A DNA stretch of 7,067 bases from a virus. Its lineage: Duplodnaviria > Heunggongvirae > Uroviricota > Caudoviricetes. Positions within the stretch are counted from its first letter, which is position 1. Every line of letters begins with the position of its first letter. The translations under genes and the position numbers were made by a program. The DNA lies in IMG/VR virus record IMGVR_UViG_3300029070_000030. One strand, written 5' to 3'. Below are positions 318 through 7,067 of this stretch, piece by piece. The notes beneath the pieces were generated by a model, which saw only the letters and a program-made list of their open reading frames with translations, was not told the DNA's origin and made no database searches.

Positions 318-638
318 TCAGTGCAGTACCGGCGCTTTTATGTGACGGGCACAGAGTTCATCCATCACAACCAGCCCGAGAAAGGACAGCGACGGCGCGG
401 CCTTCAGGGGGCCGGATTCCATTAAATCTTCCAGCAGGGCACAGGCTATCTGACGCCCTTTTTCCTCACCGTGCTGGCGCAGATAAAAGCCTTCCAGCTC
501 AGCGGCGATGGCCGCCTCCAGTGACTCAAGGGTGAGATGCGGGTAGCGGTGCTGACGTTCGCACACGGTCAGCCAGGCACAGGCGACAGCGCGACGGTAA
601 AGGGCAGCGCGTAAGACGGGCGGTAAGGGTGTTTTCAT
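318..638 (-). CDS. P4 orf106-like small protein (possibly the Cnr copy-number regulator homologue; that name is from memory)
   Basis: 106-aa ORF on the minus strand; GGGAGG lies 7 nt upstream of ATG 638; position immediately upstream of alpha matches the P4 left operon; size matches P4 orf106. Confidence 0.65.
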
Positions 639-773
639 TTGTTTTCCTCCCTGTGACAGATGACTGCATTCCGTGCCGGTTGCATTAACTGATAAGGCAT
701 ATCTGCGTCTCCTGAAGACGTGCGTATCCCTGCGCGAATACGCACATTTAATTTTTCGGGTGTCGTTTTTTAA

Positions 774-1229
774 TTACAGATAATTGCGGTAACTGTTATC
801 CGGGGTGATTTCCGGGTCAGGCTCCGTGCGGGGAATTTCCCGCCATTCCCGCGCTACCGGTGCTGCCCGGCTGACCGGAACAGTGTCCTGCGGGTAAATA
901 TCCAGATATTTCTCCCGCCATTTCTGTAATTCCGGGTCTCCGGCCATTTCTTTCAGTACCGCATGCCGGTTTACGGGGCTGCGTTTAAACAGGTCAGGAC
1001 GGTCACAGGTAAATTCCCGCAGAAAACGCCCCAGCGGGATGTCTGTGGTGCGCCCGTCGGCGAGGATACGCACAAGGATACTGAATTTACGGCGGTACGG
1101 GTTCCAGACAATGTCCGGGCAGCGGTACGGCATTTCCCACGGAATACCGTCTTCCAGAATGCCGACCACGGCCACATCGGGAAAACCGGCAGAACGGTAA
1201 ATCTCACCGGGCTGGGGAAAATCAAACAT
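774..1229 (-). CDS. P4 orf151-like hypothetical protein
   Basis: 151-aa ORF on the minus strand; its ATG (1229-1227) overlaps the stop of the upstream epsilon-like ORF (ATGTTTGA), suggesting translational coupling; size and position match P4 orf151 between eps and alpha. Confidence 0.65.
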   Translation of the reverse strand: MFDFPQPGEIYRSAGFPDVAVVGILEDGIPWEMPYRCPDIVWNPYRRKFSILVRILADGRTTDIPLGRFLREFTCDRPDLFKRSPVNRHAVLKEMAGDPELQKWREKYLDIYPQDTVPVSRAAPVAREWREIPRTEPDPEITPDNSYRNYL

Positions 1230-1509: not shown

Positions 1510-1837
1510 GGGACACCTCCACCACCGGCAGACGGGCAGCAAGGGAGAGCACATAGTCACGGACAAGGGAACGGCGGGCGCTGCGTTCATCACCGGCGAC
1601 GGTGCGAAGCATACAGATACGGGGATGACGGTCTGCGCGACGGACAGCCGCAAACACAAAGACAAATTCAGGGTGTGAAGGGGTAAGGGTCGTAGCCATA
1701 AGGCAACCTCCGATAACAGCGTAAATGACGCTATCGCCGGAGTTTCCACGCTCGATGGCGATAGCCCAGACGGGGGTGGAAATACCGGCGTTATCGGAAA
1801 CCGGCCAGCCCGGAGGCTGCCCCGCCTGAGCTACCAT
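1502..1837 (-). CDS. Hypothetical protein upstream of eps (111 aa from ATG 1837; may extend to ATG 2101, 199 aa)
   Basis: Part of the 214-aa track ORF 1502..2146. The C-terminal 111 codons ([31 protein letters not shown]...LPVVEVSRA) look protein-like, and the stop TAA 1504-1502 abuts the eps GTG. An upstream in-frame ATGATGATG (2101-2093) overlaps the vis stop, which would give 199 aa, but that N-terminal stretch has odd composition and a lower-GC, palindrome-rich template. No recognisable motif. Low confidence. Confidence 0.3.
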
Positions 1838-2097
1838 TGACTCTGCGGTATAATGAGCGGACGCGGGCAGAATGCACGGAGTGCCATTTGCTCGACTGAC
1901 CACACACCACACCATAATCTGGCGCTCTGTGGCGTTGATTGCGACACAAAAAAAGACGCATGGCGCGTCATATGTCGCCGATAACATACTCGGGTTTCCA
2001 CGCCCGGCTGCCGATTTTGCGGCAGCGGAAAAACTATATCCGCAAATGCCGGAAAAAGGCAAGCCAGAAAAAGGGACTTTTTGCAGAACAGGCATCA

Positions 2098-2364
2098 TCA
2101 TGCGTCGTACCCCCGTTTGCGTCCGGCAATGCGCCCGGCCATCCATGCGGTGACTTCAGAGTGCAGCCAGGCTACATTTTTACCGCCAAGACTCACCTGC
2201 GGCGGAAATTCCCCCTTACGGATGAATTCGTAGATGGTCGAGCGTGACAGGCCGCACAGGTGCATCACTTCCGGCAGACGTAAAAAACGCTCCTGCGTGA
2301 TGTCCGGCAGCGGCATCAGTGGCGTCACAGGGGCGGGAGACGGGGAAGAAAAAACAGCTTGCAT
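2098..2364 (-). CDS. vis: AlpA/Vis-family phage DNA-binding regulator (88 aa), first gene of the leftward operon
   Basis: 88-aa [81 protein letters not shown]; the FLRLPEV...GLSRSTIY...G.FP....G...W core is the AlpA/Vis helix-turn-helix signature. GAGGT lies 6 nt upstream of ATG 2364. It is divergent from sid, as in P4-like satellites where alpA is a core gene. Confidence 0.8.
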
Positions 2365-2466
2365 CGGGCTACCTCGTTAATGTCCATACAGCACCGGATA
2401 AGTCCGTCCGGCTTCGGGTAGCGCTTTATTTTGTGAATATTTTCGGCAGACGCAACAGGGGGGATT

Positions 2467-2484
2467 TGTTCCGGCAGTCTTACA
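2467..2484 (-). promoter_or_regulatory. TGT-N12-ACA dyad, candidate Ogr/Delta-type activator site of a leftward late promoter (P_LL-like) upstream of vis
   Basis: TGT (2467-2469), 12 nt, ACA (2482-2484). The centre is ~110 bp upstream of the vis ATG, consistent with a site centred near -55 and a ~55-nt leader. The motif is only 6 fixed bases, so chance occurrence is possible. Confidence 0.4.
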
Positions 2485-2642
2485 ATGGCTGTGTGTTTTT
2501 TGTACATCAGCGCCAGATAGCTTTAAAACGCTCTGGAAGGAGCTGGAAAAAATTATAGTGAAATACAAATTGTTTTTTCTTATTTATTTCAGTGAATTAA
2601 TAAAAATAAAAAGTAATAAACAGCACAAAAAGCCCATCAACG

Positions 2643-2747
2643 GGTGAACAGTGGTGAACAGACGGTGAACAGTCATTACTGCGATTGTTCACCCTTTAAC
2701 TTACTGTATTACTTATCTTTTTTCTTATGGTGAACAGAGGTGAACAG
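2643..2747. repeat. Iteron cluster: five direct copies of GGTGAACAG plus one inverted TGTTCACC; P4 alpha-binding type-I iteron (TGTTCACC), ori/crr-like
   Basis: GGTGAACAG at 2643-2651, 2653-2661, 2664-2672, 2729-2737 and 2739-2747; inverted TGTTCACC at 2686-2693; embedded in an AT-rich tract (2560-2760). The octamer is the reverse complement of the P4 type-I iteron bound by alpha (from memory of the P4 literature). Confidence 0.7.
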
Positions 2748-2825
2748 TAAAATATAAAAAAACAAACAGTAAGCCGGTTTTTCCTGCGACCTTTTCCTGG
2801 CTTGCCGGTCTGAGGATGAGTCTCC

Positions 2826-2843
2826 TGTGTCAGGGCTGGCACA
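2826..2843 (+). promoter_or_regulatory. TGT-N12-ACA dyad, candidate Ogr/Delta-type activator site of the sid late promoter (P_sid-like)
   Basis: TGT (2826-2828), 12 nt, ACA (2841-2843). The centre is ~80 bp upstream of the sid ATG (2916), consistent with a -55 activator site and a short leader. P2/P4 late promoters carry this dyad (established knowledge). Confidence 0.5.
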
Positions 2844-2915
2844 TCTGCAATGCGTCGTGTTGTTGTCCGGTGTACGTCACAATTTTCTTAACCTGAAGTG
2901 ACGAGGAGCCGGAAA

Positions 2916-3650
2916 ATGTCTGACAACACCATCCCTGAATATCTGCAACCCGCGCTGGCACAACTGGAAAAGGCCAGAGCCGCCCATCTTGAGAACGCCC
3001 GCCTGATGGATGAGACCGTCACGGCCATTGAACGGGCAGAGCAGGAAAAAAATGCGCTGGCGCAGGCCGACGGAAACGACGCTGACGACTGGCGCACGGC
3101 CTTTCGTGCAGCCGGTGGTGTCCTGAGCGACGAGCTGAAACAGCGCCACATTGAGCGCGTGGCACGCCGGGAGCTGGTACAGGAATATGACAATCTGGCC
3201 GTGGTGCTGAATTTTGAACGCGAACGCCTGAAAGGGGCGTGTGACAGCACGGCCACCGCCTACCGGAAGGCACATCATCACCTTCTGAGTCTGTATGCAG
3301 AGCATGAGCTGGAACACGCCCTGAATGAAACCTGTGAGGCGCTTGTCCGGGCAATGCATCTGAGCATTCTGGTACAGGAAAATCCGCTCGCCAACACCAC
3401 CGGCCATCAGGGCTACGTCGCACCGGAAAAGGCTGTCATGCAGCAGGTGAAATCATCGCTGGAACAGAAAATAAAACAGATGCAAATCAGCCTCACCGGC
3501 GAGCCGGTTCTCCGGCTGACCGGACTGTCAGCGGCAACACTCCCGCACATGGATTATGAGGTGGCAGGCACACCGGCACAGCGCAAGGTGTGGCAGGACA
3601 AAATAGACCAGCAGGGAGCAGTGCTTAAGGCCAGAGGACTGCTGTCATGA
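2916..3650 (+). CDS. sid: Sid-like capsid size-determination (external scaffold) protein, 244 aa
   Basis: Track ORF 2898..3650; preferred start is ATG 2916 (MSDNTIPEYLQPALAQLEKARAAH...) with AGGAG 8 nt upstream, while GTG 2898 has no SD. Strongly alpha-helical, Ala/Glu/Leu/Gln-rich sequence. The 244-aa length matches P4 Sid, and the order sid-delta-psu is diagnostic. Confidence 0.8.
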   Translation: MSDNTIPEYLQPALAQLEKARAAHLENARLMDETVTAIERAEQEKNALAQADGNDADDWRTAFRAAGGVLSDELKQRHIERVARRELVQEYDNLAVVLNFERERLKGACDSTATAYRKAHHHLLSLYAEHELEHALNETCEALVRAMHLSILVQENPLANTTGHQGYVAPEKAVMQQVKSSLEQKIKQMQISLTGEPVLRLTGLSAATLPHMDYEVAGTPAQRKVWQDKIDQQGAVLKARGLLS

Positions 3651-3892
3651 TGCGCTGCCCTTTCTGTCGTCATTCAGCGCATACTCGCACCAGCCGGTAT
3701 GTGAGTGACAATGTCAAAGAAAGTTATCTGCAGTGCCAGAATATTTACTGTTCGGCGACATTTAAAACGCATGAGTCAATTTGTGCCGTGATTCGTTCTC
3801 CGGTCACGGAGGAAAAACCAGCACCGGCAAGCACAGCACCGGCTGTTGTCCGAAAAGTTAAAGGCTGTTACAGCTCACCATTTAACCATTAA
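3647..3892 (+). CDS. delta: Ogr/Delta-family zinc-finger late transcriptional activator, single-domain form (81 aa)
   Basis: MMRCPFCRHSAHTRTSRYVSDNVKESYLQCQNIYCSATFKTHESI carries the C-x2-C ... C-x4-C zinc-finger spacing and RTSRY/CQN..CSATF motifs typical of P2 Ogr and P4 Delta. Its ATG overlaps the sid stop (ATGA at 3647-3650); GAGGA lies 8 nt upstream. Confidence 0.85.
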   Translation: MMRCPFCRHSAHTRTSRYVSDNVKESYLQCQNIYCSATFKTHESICAVIRSPVTEEKPAPASTAPAVVRKVKGCYSSPFNH

Positions 3893-3906: not shown

Positions 3907-4479
3907 GTGACCACAATGTCATTACAGCAGGCTTTTGAGGTCTGCCAGAATAACAAAGCGGCATGGCTGCAACGCAAAAATGAGCTGGCAGCGGCCGAAC
4001 AGGAATATCTGCGGCTTCTGTCAGGAGAAGGCAGAAACGTCAGCCGCCTGGACGAATTACGCAATATTATCGAAGTCAGAAAATGGCAGGTGAATCAGGC
4101 CGCCGGTCGTTATATTCGTTCGCATGAAGCCGTTCAGCACATCAGCATCCGCGAGCGGCTGAATGATTTTATGCAGCAGCACGGCACAGCACTGGCGGCC
4201 GCACTGGCACCGGAGCTGATGGGCTACAGTGAGCTGACGACCATTGCCCGAAACTGTGCCATACAGCGTGCCACAGATGCCCTGCGTGAAGCCCTCCTGT
4301 CCTGGCTTGCGAAGGGTGAAAAAATTAATTATTCCGCACAGGATAGCGACATTTTAACGACCATCGGATTCAGGCCTGACGCGGCTTCGGTGGATGACAG
4401 CCGTGAAAAATTCACCCCTGCGCAGAACATGATTTTTTCGCGTAAAAGTGCAGAACTGGCATCACGTCAGTCTGTGTAA
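3907..4479 (+). CDS. psu: Psu-like polarity-suppression / capsid-decoration protein, 190 aa
   Basis: 190-aa ORF; GTG 3907 start with AGGAGA 6 nt upstream (the ATG at 3916 is too far from the SD). Third gene of the sid-delta-psu late operon; the length equals P4 Psu. It is followed by a hairpin and then cos. Confidence 0.85.
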   Translation: MTTMSLQQAFEVCQNNKAAWLQRKNELAAAEQEYLRLLSGEGRNVSRLDELRNIIEVRKWQVNQAAGRYIRSHEAVQHISIRERLNDFMQQHGTALAAALAPELMGYSELTTIARNCAIQRATDALREALLSWLAKGEKINYSAQDSDILTTIGFRPDAASVDDSREKFTPAQNMIFSRKSAELASRQSV

Positions 4480-4687: not shown

Positions 4688-5644
4688 TTAAATGCCAAGC
4701 AATAATTTTTTCTTGAAGTAGCTTTCAAAGCTATCCTTATCACCATTGAATACACCCATCAACTCATCAGAGTTTATTATTATATTCATTATTTCTCTTA
4801 AATAATTATCAAGTTTAATGCTTTCCTCTGGTAGTTTTCCAACTTTAGATGATTTTAAACTGTCACCATGAGTAACTTTAGAGCGAATGTTATAGAATGA
4901 CTTTATTTCATCAAATGTAGTGATAGGATCAAAGTTATATGGTTTTAAGAAAATAGCGACCCGCTCAGAAAGTTTATGAGAAAGTTCAGAGCTATCTGTT
5001 GAGAATAAGCTCTCAAGTGCGCTGCAGTAGTGAGATATTTTCATTGCGGGATCGAAATCTCGCTTTGCTGATCTTATAAAACTCAATGCCCTTCCATAGC
5101 GAGAATATTTTGAATCAACAAAAGAATCAAAAATAGTAGAGTTATTATTATATAGGTGAGTTTGAACTCGATGGTTTATATCTGCCCACTTAGTTAAGTC
5201 ACTCCTGTTAAATTCAACATCAATATGGCGATAACCGCTTGCCATCGTAAATAAACTTAATAGACTATTGTTCGACCATTCAGAATATGCTTTGCGATCA
5301 GTTTTATTGCAATATGCAATTTCGCAAAGCATGCCATTATCCTTGATAAACCAAGAAGTATTTATAAGCATATCTATCCACAAAAGCCAAGTCGTCAATG
5401 CAAAATTGCTTTTTGTAGACGGCTGAAAAAAATCATCTTTAAGATCGGCAAAAATTATGTGATTTGCATTGTATAAATGTTCATATTCAATGATACCAGT
5501 AAAAGGCTTAATATCTTTGTTAATTATTTTTCTAATTTTTGCCCTATCTCTTATTAGAGTAACTCCGGGAAGGAGGTCAAAATCATCGAAATTATCCCCT
5601 ATAACATTCATAAATCTTAATGTTGTGTAGAATTTAAAGTGCAT
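4688..5644 (-). CDS. Hypothetical protein, 318 aa, AT-rich hotspot cargo; function unknown (candidate anti-phage defence / abortive-infection protein)
   Basis: 318-aa ORF with no internal stops in strongly AT-rich DNA that contrasts sharply with the GC-rich P4 backbone. GGAG lies 7 nt upstream of ATG 5644, and the start overlaps the last codons of int. Located between cos and int, the variable hotspot of P4-like satellites. I recognise no family; the only motif noted is a possible Rx4H (R254...H259, NIRSKVTHGD), which is weak. Confidence 0.8.
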   Translation of the reverse strand: MHFKFYTTLRFMNVIGDNFDDFDLLPGVTLIRDRAKIRKIINKDIKPFTGIIEYEHLYNANHIIFADLKDDFFQPSTKSNFALTTWLLWIDMLINTSWFIKDNGMLCEIAYCNKTDRKAYSEWSNNSLLSLFTMASGYRHIDVEFNRSDLTKWADINHRVQTHLYNNNSTIFDSFVDSKYSRYGRALSFIRSAKRDFDPAMKISHYCSALESLFSTDSSELSHKLSERVAIFLKPYNFDPITTFDEIKSFYNIRSKVTHGDSLKSSKVGKLPEESIKLDNYLREIMNIIINSDELMGVFNGDKDSFESYFKKKLLLGI

Positions 5645-6830
5645 TATATATCTCCATATTCATTTTCGGATATAATCTATCACTATACCATTGCATCATT
5701 TCTTTCCTTTTCTCTAAATATTGTGCATGGTTATATGTGCCTCGAATTGTGTTTTTATCTACATGAGCTAATTGCATTTCAATCCATACACTATTGAATC
5801 CTTTTTCATGCAAAATGGTTGACATGGTATGCCTGAACCCATGACCTGTTGCACGACCTTTGTAGCCTAATAACTCAATCACCTGTGTCACACTTTCTTT
5901 AGATATAGGTTTACTACGATTATTTCTACCTATAAAAATGTAGGGATAATGGCCGCTAATAGGCTTGAGCTGTTTAAAAAGGGCAATCACCTGAGTAGAT
6001 AGAGGTACAATATGAGGTCTGCGCATTTTCATCCTTTCAGCTGGAATCTCCCATATTCCTTTCTCAAGGTCAACTTCATCCCACGTGGCAAAGCGCATTT
6101 CCTGAGTTCTTACGCCAGTTAACATGACAATTTTTGTCGCATTTTTAGTGATGATGCTTCCGGTATACGCTTCAAGATCTTGAATAAAATAAGGCAATTC
6201 TTCGGCAGATAAAAATGGGTGGTGTTTTTGCTTAGGAACGGCCAGAGCGATAGCTAAATCAGGTGCTGGATTGTATTCAGCGCGGCCAGTGATGATCGCG
6301 TAGCGAAACACCTCTCCGCATCGTTGACGTACTTTTCTGGTTTTCTCCAACGCTCCACGTTTTTCTATGCGTTTAAGAACTTCAAGCAGTTCTAGGGGTT
6401 TAATTTCAGCTATTGGCCGTTTACCAATGAAAGGAAAAACATCCTGTTCAAATGTTTTAATAATTTCTTCGCGATAAGCTAAAGTCCAGCGATCTGCTTT
6501 TGTTGCATGCCATTCTCTGCTAACGGCCTCAAAAGAGTTTTCAGTTGATAATTTCTGAGCAATTTTCTGAGCCTTACGTTCTTCTACTGGATCAATGCCG
6601 TTTGCAACCTGTTTACGTGCCGTATCGCGTTTCTCACGTGCTTCCGCGAGGCTTACAAGATCGTAACTACCAAATGACATTAACCGCGCTTTACCGGCAA
6701 AACGAAAGCGGAATCGCCATCCCTTTGAGCCGTCTGGATTGATGAGTAATGACAAGCCTTGCCCATCATTCATTGTATATGGTTTGTCTTGTGGTTTTGC
6801 GCGTTTGATTTGTATATCGGTTAGAGCCAT
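5634..6830 (-). CDS. int: P4-type tyrosine integrase (site-specific recombinase), selC-specific
   Basis: 398-aa ORF beginning MALTDIQIKRAKPQDKPYTMNDGQGLSLLINPDGSKGWRFRFRF, the characteristic N-terminal arm-binding domain of P4-family integrases. C-terminal catalytic region has HGFRHT...LAHVDKNTIRGTYNHAQY (H-x-x-R ... H ... Y). It lies directly downstream of, and co-oriented with, a tRNA gene 3' end. Confidence 0.9.
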   Translation of the reverse strand: MALTDIQIKRAKPQDKPYTMNDGQGLSLLINPDGSKGWRFRFRFAGKARLMSFGSYDLVSLAEAREKRDTARKQVANGIDPVEERKAQKIAQKLSTENSFEAVSREWHATKADRWTLAYREEIIKTFEQDVFPFIGKRPIAEIKPLELLEVLKRIEKRGALEKTRKVRQRCGEVFRYAIITGRAEYNPAPDLAIALAVPKQKHHPFLSAEELPYFIQDLEAYTGSIITKNATKIVMLTGVRTQEMRFATWDEVDLEKGIWEIPAERMKMRRPHIVPLSTQVIALFKQLKPISGHYPYIFIGRNNRSKPISKESVTQVIELLGYKGRATGHGFRHTMSTILHEKGFNSVWIEMQLAHVDKNTIRGTYNHAQYLEKRKEMMQWYSDRLYPKMNMEIYNAL

Positions 6831-6992: not shown

Positions 6993-7067
6993 TGGCGGAA
7001 GATCACAGGAGTCGAACCTGCCCGGGACCGCTGGCGGCCCCAACTGGATTTGAAGTCCAGCCGCCTC
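6993..7067 (-). tRNA. selC: tRNA-Sec (selC), 3' 75 nt including CCA; 5' ~20 nt lie beyond the window end
   Basis: Reverse complement of 6993-7067 reads GAGGCGGCTGGACTTCAAATCCAGTTGGGGCCGCCAGCGGTCCCGGGCAGGTTCGACTCCTGTGATCTTCCGCCA, which matches my recollection of positions 21-95 of E. coli selC (anticodon loop CTTCAAATC with UCA, long variable arm, T-arm GGTTCGACTCC, 3' CCA). Confidence 0.9.

What the first reader, a model, noticed from the sequence alone, without database searches (positions are those of the whole stretch)
2467..2484. Second TGT-N12-ACA dyad positioned for a leftward (P_LL-like) promoter upstream of vis
A second copy of the activator-type dyad lies in the same intergenic region, placed to serve the leftward vis operon (centre ~110 bp upstream of the vis ATG). 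Two such dyads in ~530 bp, each correctly positioned for an opposite gene, is more than expected by chance for a 6-base motif, though not conclusive alone.
Basis: partly seen in the sequence, partly recalled or inferred. Interest (0 to 1): 0.4.

Follow-up and report, generated by a model that had tools for sequence, protein, structure and literature searches.

The report
P4 satellite late promoter activator site
The 18-base dyad is real and is the counterpart, in an E. coli P4-like prophage, of the well-studied binding site through which the Delta/Ogr zinc-finger activators switch on the leftward late promoter (PLL) of satellite phage P4, so it is ordinary, already-known biology.

Summary
Confirmed and explained. 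TGTTCCGGCAGTCTTACA lies at 2467-2484, centred 111.5 bp upstream of the vis ATG. The window is a P4-type satellite prophage at tRNA-Sec, 94.9% identical to phage P4 here. The dyad aligns with P4 9133-9150: both half-sites are intact and two spacer bases differ.

In 83 P4-lineage copies (51 distinct sequences) the half-sites vary at one base in one copy, while five of twelve spacer positions are polymorphic.

The centre lies 47.5 bp from a -10-like hexamer, (C/G)AAAAT, conserved in 36 of 37 sequences compared from P4-like elements (CATAAT in six). That predicts a leftward start near 2419-2422 and puts the dyad at about -55. This matches the annotated activator sites of the P2 and 186 late promoters (55.5-58.5 bp). 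The element carries its own 81-aa Ogr/Delta gene.

The start site and activator dependence are inferred, not measured.

Two side results:
- The exact N12 dyad at PLL is confined to the P4 lineage (1 of 36 other species' loci), whereas the sid-promoter dyad is present in 35 of 35.
- The roughly 44-bp stretch upstream, the Cox boxes in P4, occurs as three equal-length alleles; this window has a non-P2 allele.

The parts
2467..2484 (-). Activator (Delta/Ogr) binding dyad of the leftward late promoter PLL. It reads TGTAAGACTGCCGGAACA on the transcribed (minus) strand.
   Evidence: Exact TGT-N12-ACA. It aligns with P4 X51522 9133-9150 with both half-sites kept. Across 51 distinct P4-lineage sequences the half-sites vary at 1 base in 1 sequence, while 5 of 12 spacer positions are polymorphic.
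2428..2433 (-). -10-like hexamer CAAAAT of PLL (inferred).
   Evidence: It is the only promoter-like hexamer kept (as C/GAAAAT; CATAAT in six) in 36 of 37 sequences compared (window included) from P4-like elements of many Enterobacterales (L038 has CACAAT). Its 3' T is 47.5 bp from the dyad centre, against 49.5 bp for P2 pF (GAAAAT) and 48.5 bp for the window's sid promoter (CACAAT). The consensus sigma-70 scan finds no promoter in 2300-2950, as expected for an activator-dependent promoter with a poor -35.
2419..2422 (-). Predicted PLL transcription start (inferred, not mapped).
   Evidence: The dyad centre minus 55.5-58.5 bp, the offsets annotated for P2 pO, pP, pV, pF and 186 pJ, gives 2417-2420. 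The position 6-9 nt after the -10-like hexamer gives 2419-2422.
2098..2364 (-). vis (orf88), the first gene served by PLL.
   Evidence: 88-aa ORF. Pfam Phage_AlpA, E=5.4e-21. It aligns with P4 ORF88.
2365..2418 (-). vis leader, almost invariant across P4-like elements.
   Evidence: (36 loci from different species). It folds into a GCUACC/GGUAGC stem that covers the Shine-Dalgarno sequence, but the energy is not exceptional (z = -0.67).
2509..2552 (-). Variable cassette upstream of the dyad, at the place of the P2 Cox boxes of P4. The window carries allele 'type C'.
   Evidence: P4 has three 10-bp repeats here, annotated 'ori type 2 repeat' at 9176-9205. They fit the cox-box consensus TTAAA(G/C)NC(A/C) given in PMC3936717. 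The window differs over this stretch only. There are three equal-length alleles among 84 sequences.
2826..2843 (+). sid-promoter dyad (the -55-type site) for the divergent sid-delta-psu operon.
   Evidence: Identical in P4. An exact TGT-N12-ACA is present on the sid side in 35 of 35 loci from other species.
2864..2881 (+). Second sid-promoter dyad, 38 bp downstream, overlapping the -10-like CACAAT.
   Evidence: Identical in P4. The same 38-bp pair is seen in L037 and L044.
3647..3892 (+). delta, the element's own Ogr/Delta-family zinc-finger activator (81 aa, one domain).
   Evidence: Pfam Ogr_Delta PF04606, E=1.4e-18. 51% identical to the N-terminal domain of the 166-aa P4 Delta. It carries the CX2CX22CX4C motif, read from the translation; the motif is given in PMC3931495.

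Best explanation
The dyad is the upstream activator site of PLL, the leftward late promoter of a P4-type satellite prophage.

Proposed mechanism:
- A C4 zinc-finger activator binds the two half-sites TGT and ACA, whose centres are 15 bp apart. The activator is either the element's own 81-aa Delta or the Ogr/B-type protein of a P2-like helper.
- The site is centred about 55-57 bp upstream of the start. From there the activator contacts the alpha subunit of RNA polymerase.
- This recruits polymerase to a core promoter that has a -10-like CAAAAT but no usable -35.
- Transcription then runs leftward from about 2419-2422 through vis and on into the immunity/replication operon.
- The stretch just upstream (2509-2552) is where a helper's Cox-type protein binds in P4, giving a second, helper-dependent input.

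Shown here: the sequence, its orthology to P4, its geometry, its conservation pattern, and the presence of the activator gene.

Inferred: the start site, activator binding, and activator dependence in this particular element.
For: (1) Orthology. The window is 94.9% identical to P4 over 2000-3000. The dyad aligns with X51522 9133-9150 (TGTTCAGGCTGTCTTACA); both half-sites are kept and 2 spacer bases differ. In the 6 kb of P4 examined, the only three TGT-N12-ACA matches are this one and the two sid-promoter ones.

(2) Geometry. RefSeq annotation of P2 gives activator-site centres 55.5-57.5 bp from the mapped starts of pO, pP, pV and pF; for 186 pJ the offset is 58.5 bp. Here the centre is 47.5 bp from the 3' end of the conserved (C/G)AAAAT hexamer, against 49.5 bp in P2 pF and 48.5 bp in the window's sid promoter. 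The chance of a match falling within a 5-bp tolerance is about 0.002.

(3) Selection pattern. Of 93 P4-lineage-anchored sequences, 86 have a perfect dyad (84 in register plus 2 shifted by a 1-bp indel), 1 has TGT changed to TAT, and 6 are unrelated hits. In 51 distinct sequences the six half-site bases show a single variant, while spacer positions 7, 8, 9, 10 and 13 and the upstream flank are polymorphic.

(4) The cognate activator gene is present (PF04606, E=1.4e-18).

(5) No consensus sigma-70 promoter is found in the region.

(6) Literature held here. Ogr binds conserved inverted repeats centred near -55 and needs the RNA polymerase alpha subunit (PMC3152322). TGT-N12-ACA is the consensus of the P2 late promoters (PMC3931495). 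PLL is the P4 late promoter, activated by P2 Cox bound upstream (PMC3936717, PMC5009727).

(7) From my own recollection, not checked here: Deho et al. 1988 (J Virol 62:1697) defined PLL as Delta/Ogr-dependent, and Julien & Calendar 1995 (J Bacteriol 177:3743) footprinted Delta at about -55 on both Psid and PLL.
Against: - No transcript or binding data exist for this element, and the primary P4 papers could not be opened. The -55 assignment therefore rests on the -10 inference and on analogy.
- A second hexamer, GAAAAT, lies 11 bp upstream (2444-2439) and would put the dyad at about -44. It is disfavoured because three distant loci lose it while keeping the downstream hexamer.
- The exact N12 dyad is not conserved at this place outside the P4 lineage. 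Of 36 loci from other species, 1 has it, 17 have TGT-N11/N13-ACA at the same position, and 18 have nothing. On the sid side, 35 of 35 keep an exact dyad. The PLL site is thus less constrained, or its geometry is more tolerant, than the sid site.
- Much of the surrounding promoter and leader is also near-invariant in the P4 lineage, so conservation of the half-sites alone is not unique to them. In addition, positions 23-39 after the dyad were fixed by the search pattern.
Confidence: 0.9

Rival explanations
1. A chance occurrence of a 6-base-specified motif in an intergenic region, with no function.
For: One match in 551 bp has P about 0.20 under a Markov model. The window total of 4 is reached by 12 of 200 shuffles. 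The match at 761-778 is demonstrably chance. Half of the distant P4-like loci have no such dyad at this place.
Against: It is orthologous to the dyad in P4. It is perfect in 86 of 87 P4-lineage copies despite spacer polymorphism. Its distance to the conserved -10-like hexamer matches annotated activator sites.
Confidence: 0.03
2. A binding site for a different protein: the element's Vis (AlpA-family regulator and excisionase), the alpha replication protein (the left half, TGTTCC/TGTTCAGG, resembles the TGTTCACC iteron), or an extension of the helper Cox array.
For: Vis is said to regulate PLL (my recollection of Polo et al. 1996, not checked). The P4 record places the stretch inside a broadly drawn 'origin of DNA replication' feature, 9086-9809. 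The Cox boxes start about 25 bp upstream of the dyad.
Against: Vis is about 70% conserved in the distant loci, yet the dyad is not conserved there; what is conserved with Vis is the core promoter and leader. The annotated iterons lie 160-280 bp away, and the dyad matches them at only 6 of 8 positions in P4 and fewer here. The cox-box consensus TTAAA(G/C)NC(A/C) (PMC3936717) does not fit the dyad. The same motif at the same geometry marks the sid promoter and resembles the annotated helper sites.
Confidence: 0.05
3. The stem of a rightward intrinsic terminator (hairpin 2474-2492 followed by GTGTTTTTTG on the plus strand).
For: The consensus scan lists it: 6 pairs, a 7-nt loop and a T-run. The T-run is invariant in the P4 lineage.
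Against: The folding energy is no better than shuffles: -7.1 kcal/mol, z = -0.38, and in P4 -5.7, z = -0.34. The two commonest haplotypes (21 of 83 copies) break two of the five stem pairs, and no compensatory change is seen. No rightward gene or promoter lies upstream, since that strand is antisense to vis.
Confidence: 0.01

Closest known systems
PLL, the leftward late promoter of satellite phage P4 (X51522, dyad 9133-9150, upstream of orf88/vis)
   Same: Same position, same half-sites, same flanks (ATTGTAAG...GAACAAAT), and an identical core promoter, leader and vis start. Identity across the region is 94.9%.
   Different: Two spacer bases differ. The roughly 44-bp Cox-box stretch upstream is replaced by a different allele. 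The resident activator is an 81-aa single-domain Delta rather than the 166-aa two-domain P4 Delta. The prophage sits at tRNA-Sec.
Psid, the P4 sid-operon late promoter (window 2826-2843 and 2864-2881)
   Same: Same motif, a similar distance from dyad centre to -10 (48.5 against 47.5 bp), the same presumed activator, and a divergent arrangement in one intergenic region.
   Different: Psid has two exact dyads 38 bp apart, whereas PLL has one and no exact second site (reading). The Psid dyad is kept in 35 of 35 distant loci, the PLL dyad in 1 of 36.
Ogr/B-dependent late promoters of helper phages P2 (pO, pP, pV, pF) and 186 (pV/p12, pJ)
   Same: An upstream dyad centred 55.5-58.5 bp from the start, a weak -35, and a -10 such as GAAAAT in pF. 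Activation is through the RNA polymerase alpha subunit (PMC3152322).
   Different: The annotated helper sites read TGT-N12-CCA (P2 pO/pP and pF; 186 pV/p12 and pJ) or TGT-N11-ACA (P2 pV), not the fully symmetric TGT-N12-ACA of the satellite.

Membership tests
P2/P4-type late promoter dependent on an Ogr/Delta zinc-finger activator | Upstream dyad TGT-N12-ACA (helper variants TGT-N12-CCA) | tested here: met
   Exact match at 2467-2484. Consensus as given in PMC3931495. Helper sites were read from the RefSeq annotation.
P2/P4-type late promoter dependent on an Ogr/Delta zinc-finger activator | Dyad centred about 55 bp upstream of the transcription start | tested here: inconclusive
   No start is mapped for this element. 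The conserved -10-like hexamer at 2433-2428 puts the centre at about -54 to -57. The alternative hexamer at 2444-2439 would give about -44.
P2/P4-type late promoter dependent on an Ogr/Delta zinc-finger activator | Core promoter with a -10-like element but no good -35, so inactive without the activator | tested here: met
   The consensus scan finds no sigma-70 promoter in 2300-2950. CAAAAT is present, and the hexamer 17 bp upstream is GTTGCG, matching 2 of 6 (read).
P2/P4-type late promoter dependent on an Ogr/Delta zinc-finger activator | Cognate activator encoded by the element or its helper | tested here: met
   The 81-aa ORF at 3647-3892 matches PF04606 Ogr_Delta, E=1.4e-18. Homologues occur in 210 phage records, mostly P2-like.
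P2/P4-type late promoter dependent on an Ogr/Delta zinc-finger activator | Transcription and protein binding depend on the activator | not testable with these tools
   This needs footprinting or gel shift and reporter or 5'-end assays.
Orthologue of phage P4 PLL | Collinear alignment with the P4 vis-sid intergenic region, with the dyad at the homologous column | tested here: met
Orthologue of phage P4 PLL | P2-type Cox boxes immediately upstream of the dyad | tested here: not met
   The three P4 repeats (9176-9205) are replaced in the window by a different sequence of equal length. At most one TTAAAGC remains.

The most novel reading that the evidence does not exclude
The PLL control region may be modular and matched to the helper. 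Its activator dyad in exact N12 form is confined to the P4 lineage. The 44 bp just upstream, which bind P2 Cox in P4, have been exchanged as a cassette of constant length. Three alleles occur in E. coli-type satellites, and Apl-like TTGCCA repeats occupy the same place in other Enterobacterales.

On this reading the window's 'type C' allele would make this satellite respond to the Cox/Apl-type protein of a helper other than P2. The repertoire of alleles would then record which helper each satellite is tuned to.
Probability: 0.3. Interest if true: 0.45.

Novelty: already known. Interest (0 to 1): 0.12.

Why it matters
For annotation, it fixes the position of the leftward late promoter in a widespread family of E. 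coli P4-like prophages. About 1,060 of 5,426 complete E. coli genomes carry this intergenic sequence, and none of the RefSeq records inspected annotates it. It adds nothing new to the mechanism of Ogr/Delta activation. The more useful by-products are comparative: the sid-promoter site is universal, the PLL site is lineage-specific, and the adjacent Cox-box stretch is allelic. Together these could be used to predict satellite-helper pairings.

Tried and rejected
- **Primary P4 literature.** Julien & Calendar 1995 and 1996, Van Bokkelen 1991, Halling & Calendar 1990, Saha 1989, the Lindqvist 1993 review, Christie & Dokland 2012 and Christie & Calendar 2016 are not held. Text searches for PLL/Psid found only the P2 Cox papers.
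- **Terminator reading of the hairpin at 2474-2492.** Rejected.
- **Fourth dyad at 761-778 as a further activator site.** Rejected: P4 has GGT there.
- **A second, '-18-type' exact dyad at PLL, like the one at Psid.** None was found. The nearest is CTG-N12-ACA at 2449-2432 (reading).
- **GAAAAT at 2444-2439 as the -10.** Disfavoured, because it is lost in L023, L039 and L042 while the downstream hexamer is kept.
- **Scan of viral contigs with the 14-mer CTCCTTCCAGAGCG** to find a helper carrying the window's cassette repeat. The hits were too unspecific: more than 120, mostly unrelated environmental contigs.
- **tRNA search with ARAGORN.** It found nothing because the tRNA-Sec is cut by the window end. 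Rfam found it.

Full report
**Observation**

The sequence TGTTCCGGCAGTCTTACA lies at 2467-2484 and is an exact TGT-N12-ACA. Its centre (2475.5) is 111.5 bp upstream of the ATG of the minus-strand ORF 2098-2364. The window has four matches against 1.5 expected, and 12 of 200 shuffles reach four, so the count alone is weak.

Three of the four fall inside the 551-bp region between the divergent ORFs (2467, 2826, 2864). A first-order Markov model of that region gives 0.22 matches on average, P(>=1)=0.20 and P(>=3)=0.0017. The fourth match (761-778) is not shared with P4, which reads GGT there, and is best taken as chance.

**What the window is**

The stretch 2000-3000 is 94.9% identical to phage P4 (X51522 8666-9667).

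| Coordinates (strand) | Feature | Evidence |
|---|---|---|
| 318-638 (-) | orf106/DUF5375 | |
| 774-1229 (-) | orf151 | |
| 1754-1841 (-) | C4-family immunity RNA | |
| 1949-2039 (-) | isrK and c4-a1b1 target elements | |
| 2098-2364 (-) | vis/orf88 (Phage_AlpA, 5e-21) | |
| ~2641-2760 | GGTGAACA iterons | |
| 2916-3650 (+) | sid | |
| 3647-3892 (+) | 81-aa Ogr/Delta protein (PF04606, 1.4e-18) | |
| 3907-4479 (+) | psu (PF07455) | |
| 4688-5644 (-) | 318-aa cargo ORF | |
| 5634-6830 (-) | tyrosine integrase | |
| 6997-7067 (-) | 3' part of tRNA-Sec | |

The PLL control region (2365-2640) is 99.6% identical to E. coli strain 300709. There the element is a prophage next to tRNA-Sec, and the cargo ORF is annotated as a HEPN-domain protein. 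About 1,063 of 5,426 complete E. coli genomes carry the vis-proximal intergenic sequence.

**Orthology to P4 PLL**

In a gapless part of the alignment the dyad falls on X51522 9133-9150, TGTTCAGGCTGTCTTACA. Both half-sites are identical and two spacer bases differ. Everything from the dyad down to the vis ATG is otherwise identical apart from one base. In the 6 kb of P4 examined, the only three TGT-N12-ACA matches are this one and the two in front of sid.

Papers held here describe PLL as the P4 late promoter, with P2 Cox binding just upstream of it (PMC3936717, PMC5009727). The three 10-bp repeats annotated at P4 9176-9205 fit the quoted cox-box consensus and lie 26 bp upstream of the dyad.

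I recall, but could not check, two further points. PLL was defined as Delta/Ogr-dependent by Deho et al. (1988). Delta was footprinted at about -55 on both Psid and PLL by Julien & Calendar (1995).

**Geometry**

The RefSeq records of the helpers carry mapped starts and activator sites.

| Promoter | Site centre | Start | Offset |
|---|---|---|---|
| P2 pO | 3071.5 | 3127 | 55.5 bp |
| P2 pP | 3071.5 | 3016 | 55.5 bp |
| P2 pV | ~10251.5 | 10308 | ~56.5 bp |
| P2 pF | 17569.5 | 17626-17628 | ~57.5 bp |
| 186 pJ | 14100.5 | 14159 | 58.5 bp |

Applied to the window, these offsets predict a leftward start at about 2417-2420. An independent line agrees. Anchoring 36 vis-upstream regions from different Enterobacterales shows a near-invariant core, CTTGTTGC-N12-AAAATATTCACAAAATAGAGAGCTACCCG. 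Within it, the hexamer (C/G)AAAAT (CATAAT in six loci; window 2433-2428) is kept in all but one locus (L038, CACAAT). The upstream GAAAAT is lost in three loci.

The dyad centre is 47.5 bp from the 3' end of that hexamer. The same measure is 49.5 bp in P2 pF (GAAAAT) and 48.5 bp in the window's own sid promoter (CACAAT). The hexamer 17 bp upstream is GTTGCG, and the consensus scan finds no sigma-70 promoter anywhere in 2300-2950. Both fit a promoter that needs an activator. The chance of a random match falling within 5 bp of the right place is about 0.002.

**Conservation inside the P4 lineage**

A scan of viral contigs with the 17-mer that follows the dyad, together with E. coli and P4 sequences, gave 93 sequences:
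- 84 have a perfect dyad in register.
- 2 have a perfect dyad shifted by a 1-bp change in the C-run.
- 1 (L079) has TGT changed to TAT.
- 6 are unrelated hits.

In 51 distinct sequences the six half-site bases show that single variant. Spacer positions 7, 8, 9, 10 and 13 and the flank positions -10, -9, -8, -4, -3 and -2 are polymorphic. The conserved unit is ATTGTAAG-n4-CC-n-GAACAAAT, which has the form expected of two half-sites read by a dimeric or two-domain protein. One caveat: positions 23-39 after the dyad were fixed by the search pattern, and the core promoter is also invariant, so conservation is not unique to the half-sites.

**The wider family**

In 36 loci from other species (Vis 64-99% identical) the result splits:
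- Only L004 (98% Vis) has the exact N12 dyad at this place.
- 17 have TGT-N11-ACA and/or TGT-N13-ACA at the same place, for example TGTGTGGTGGGCCACTACA, with centres shifted by 0.5-1.5 bp.
- 18 have nothing.

By contrast, all 35 loci with enough upstream sequence have an exact TGT-N12-ACA (typically TGTGGCAnnnnTGGCACA) on the sid side, in most of them about 82 bp before the first ATG of the sid-like ORF, as in the window. The off-by-one form resembles the annotated P2 pV site (TGTTGTCTGGTAGTTCTACAAATGA), which is itself TGT-N11-ACA. The other annotated helper sites are TGT-N12-CCA. The family therefore tolerates some variation. Even so, the PLL site is clearly less constrained than the sid site, and its exact form is a feature of the P4 lineage.

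**Rivals**

- Chance is excluded by orthology, conservation and placement.
- The terminator-like hairpin reported by the scan (2474-2492) folds no better than shuffles (z = -0.38 here, -0.34 in P4). It is broken at two of five pairs in the two commonest haplotypes, without compensation.
- A Vis operator is unlikely. Vis and the core promoter and leader are conserved across the family, while the dyad is not.
- The replication iterons lie 160-280 bp away.

**Mechanism**

The best-supported reading is class-I-type activation. Delta (here an 81-aa single-domain protein with the CX2CX22CX4C motif) or a helper Ogr/B binds the dyad at about -55. It contacts the RNA polymerase alpha subunit (PMC3152322) and drives leftward transcription from about 2419-2422 through vis into the left operon. 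The upstream stretch gives a second input from the helper's Cox-type protein (PMC3936717). Binding, start site and dependence are inferred for this element.

**Verdict**

The feature is the known PLL activator site of P4 in a close relative, so it is already known and of low interest.

**Seen in passing**

1. The 44 bp at 2509-2552 occur as three equal-length alleles among 84 P4-lineage sequences. The P4 type has three cox-box repeats (39 copies). A second type, CCTTCAGAAC CCTTTGAGAC CCTTCCAGTC, has 20 copies. The window's type, TTCCAGCTCC TTCCAGAGCG TTTTAAAGCT ATCTGGCGCT, has 25 copies.
2. The second type shares the 12-mer CCCTTCCAGTCC with the ogr-int region of phage WPhi. It also resembles the 12-nt repeat CCTAGAA(A/G)GGAC between WPhi C and cox. 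WPhi Cox is reported to recognise a 12-nt direct repeat and not to activate P4 (PMC5009727).
3. Distant satellites carry (A/T)TTGCCA repeats at 10-11 bp spacing at the same place, like the Apl operators of 186.
4. Together these suggest, without proving, that the stretch is a helper-sensing module exchanged to match the helper.

Noticed in passing
window 2509-2552 (minus strand), just upstream of the dyad; also L046-L053 and L055-L134: The stretch that holds the three P2 Cox boxes in P4 occurs as three discrete alleles of identical length among 84 P4-lineage sequences: P4 type 39, O157-like type 20, window type 25. The flanks are conserved. The window's allele has two TTCCAG boxes 10 bp apart and at most one P2-like TTAAAGC. 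The O157-like allele shares the 12-mer CCCTTCCAGTCC with the phage WPhi ogr-int region and resembles the WPhi 12-nt repeat. This may be a helper-Cox sensing module swapped to match different helpers.
   Followed up: partly
L005-L042, about 120-200 bp upstream of vis (e.g. L008, L025): Distant P4-like elements carry arrays of (A/T)TTGCCA / TTACCA repeats at 10-11 bp spacing at the position of the P4 Cox boxes. These resemble the annotated Apl operators of phage 186 (ATTGCCATTGTTTGCCAATAATTACC).
   Followed up: partly
window 2826-2843 and 2864-2881; L005-L044: The sid promoter has two exact dyads 38 bp apart. An exact TGT-N12-ACA is present on the sid side in 35 of 35 loci from other species (in most about 82 bp before the first ATG of the sid-like ORF), whereas the PLL dyad is exact in only 1 of 36. 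L037 and L044 keep the 38-bp pair.
   Followed up: yes
window 3647-3892: The Delta protein here is 81 aa with one Ogr/Delta zinc-finger domain. P4 Delta is 166 aa with two such domains, and the window protein is 51% identical to the first and 38% to the second. The same dyads are therefore presumably read by a dimer here and by a covalent tandem protein in P4.
   Followed up: partly
window 2365-2418 (minus strand): The vis leader is almost invariant across Enterobacterales P4-like elements. It can form a GCUACC/GGUAGC stem that covers the Shine-Dalgarno sequence, plus an inner CCGGA/UCCGG hairpin. The energy is not exceptional (z = -0.67), so the conservation may reflect a protein operator rather than RNA structure.
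   Followed up: partly
window 4688-5644 (minus strand): A 318-aa ORF with no Pfam hit lies between psu and int, where P4 has other genes. It is annotated as a HEPN domain-containing protein in E. coli 300709, whose element also carries a TIR-domain anti-phage reverse transcriptase beyond alpha, outside the window. It is probably defence cargo.
   Followed up: no
window 6997-7067 (minus strand): This is the 3' part of tRNA-Sec, cut by the window end (Rfam RF01852). ARAGORN missed it. The prophage is therefore integrated at the selC tRNA gene.
   Followed up: yes
window 761-778: The fourth TGT-N12-ACA in the window (TGTCGTTTTTTAATTACA) lies at the end of orf151. P4 has GGT instead of TGT in an otherwise 99% identical stretch, so it is a chance match and not a further activator site.
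   Followed up: yes
L079 (IMG/VR contig IMGVR_UViG_2740892487_000003), minus strand near 7276-7300: This is the only P4-lineage copy found with a broken half-site (TATAAGACTGCCGGAACA). It is a natural test case for whether the dyad is needed.
   Followed up: no
L054 (P2) 3063-3080, 10243-10259, 17561-17578; L137 (186) 3798-3817, 14091-14110: None of the annotated helper activator sites is an exact TGT-N12-ACA. They read TGT-N12-CCA (P2 pO/pP and pF; 186 pV/p12 and pJ) or TGT-N11-ACA (P2 pV). The fully symmetric form is a property of the satellite promoters.
   Followed up: partly
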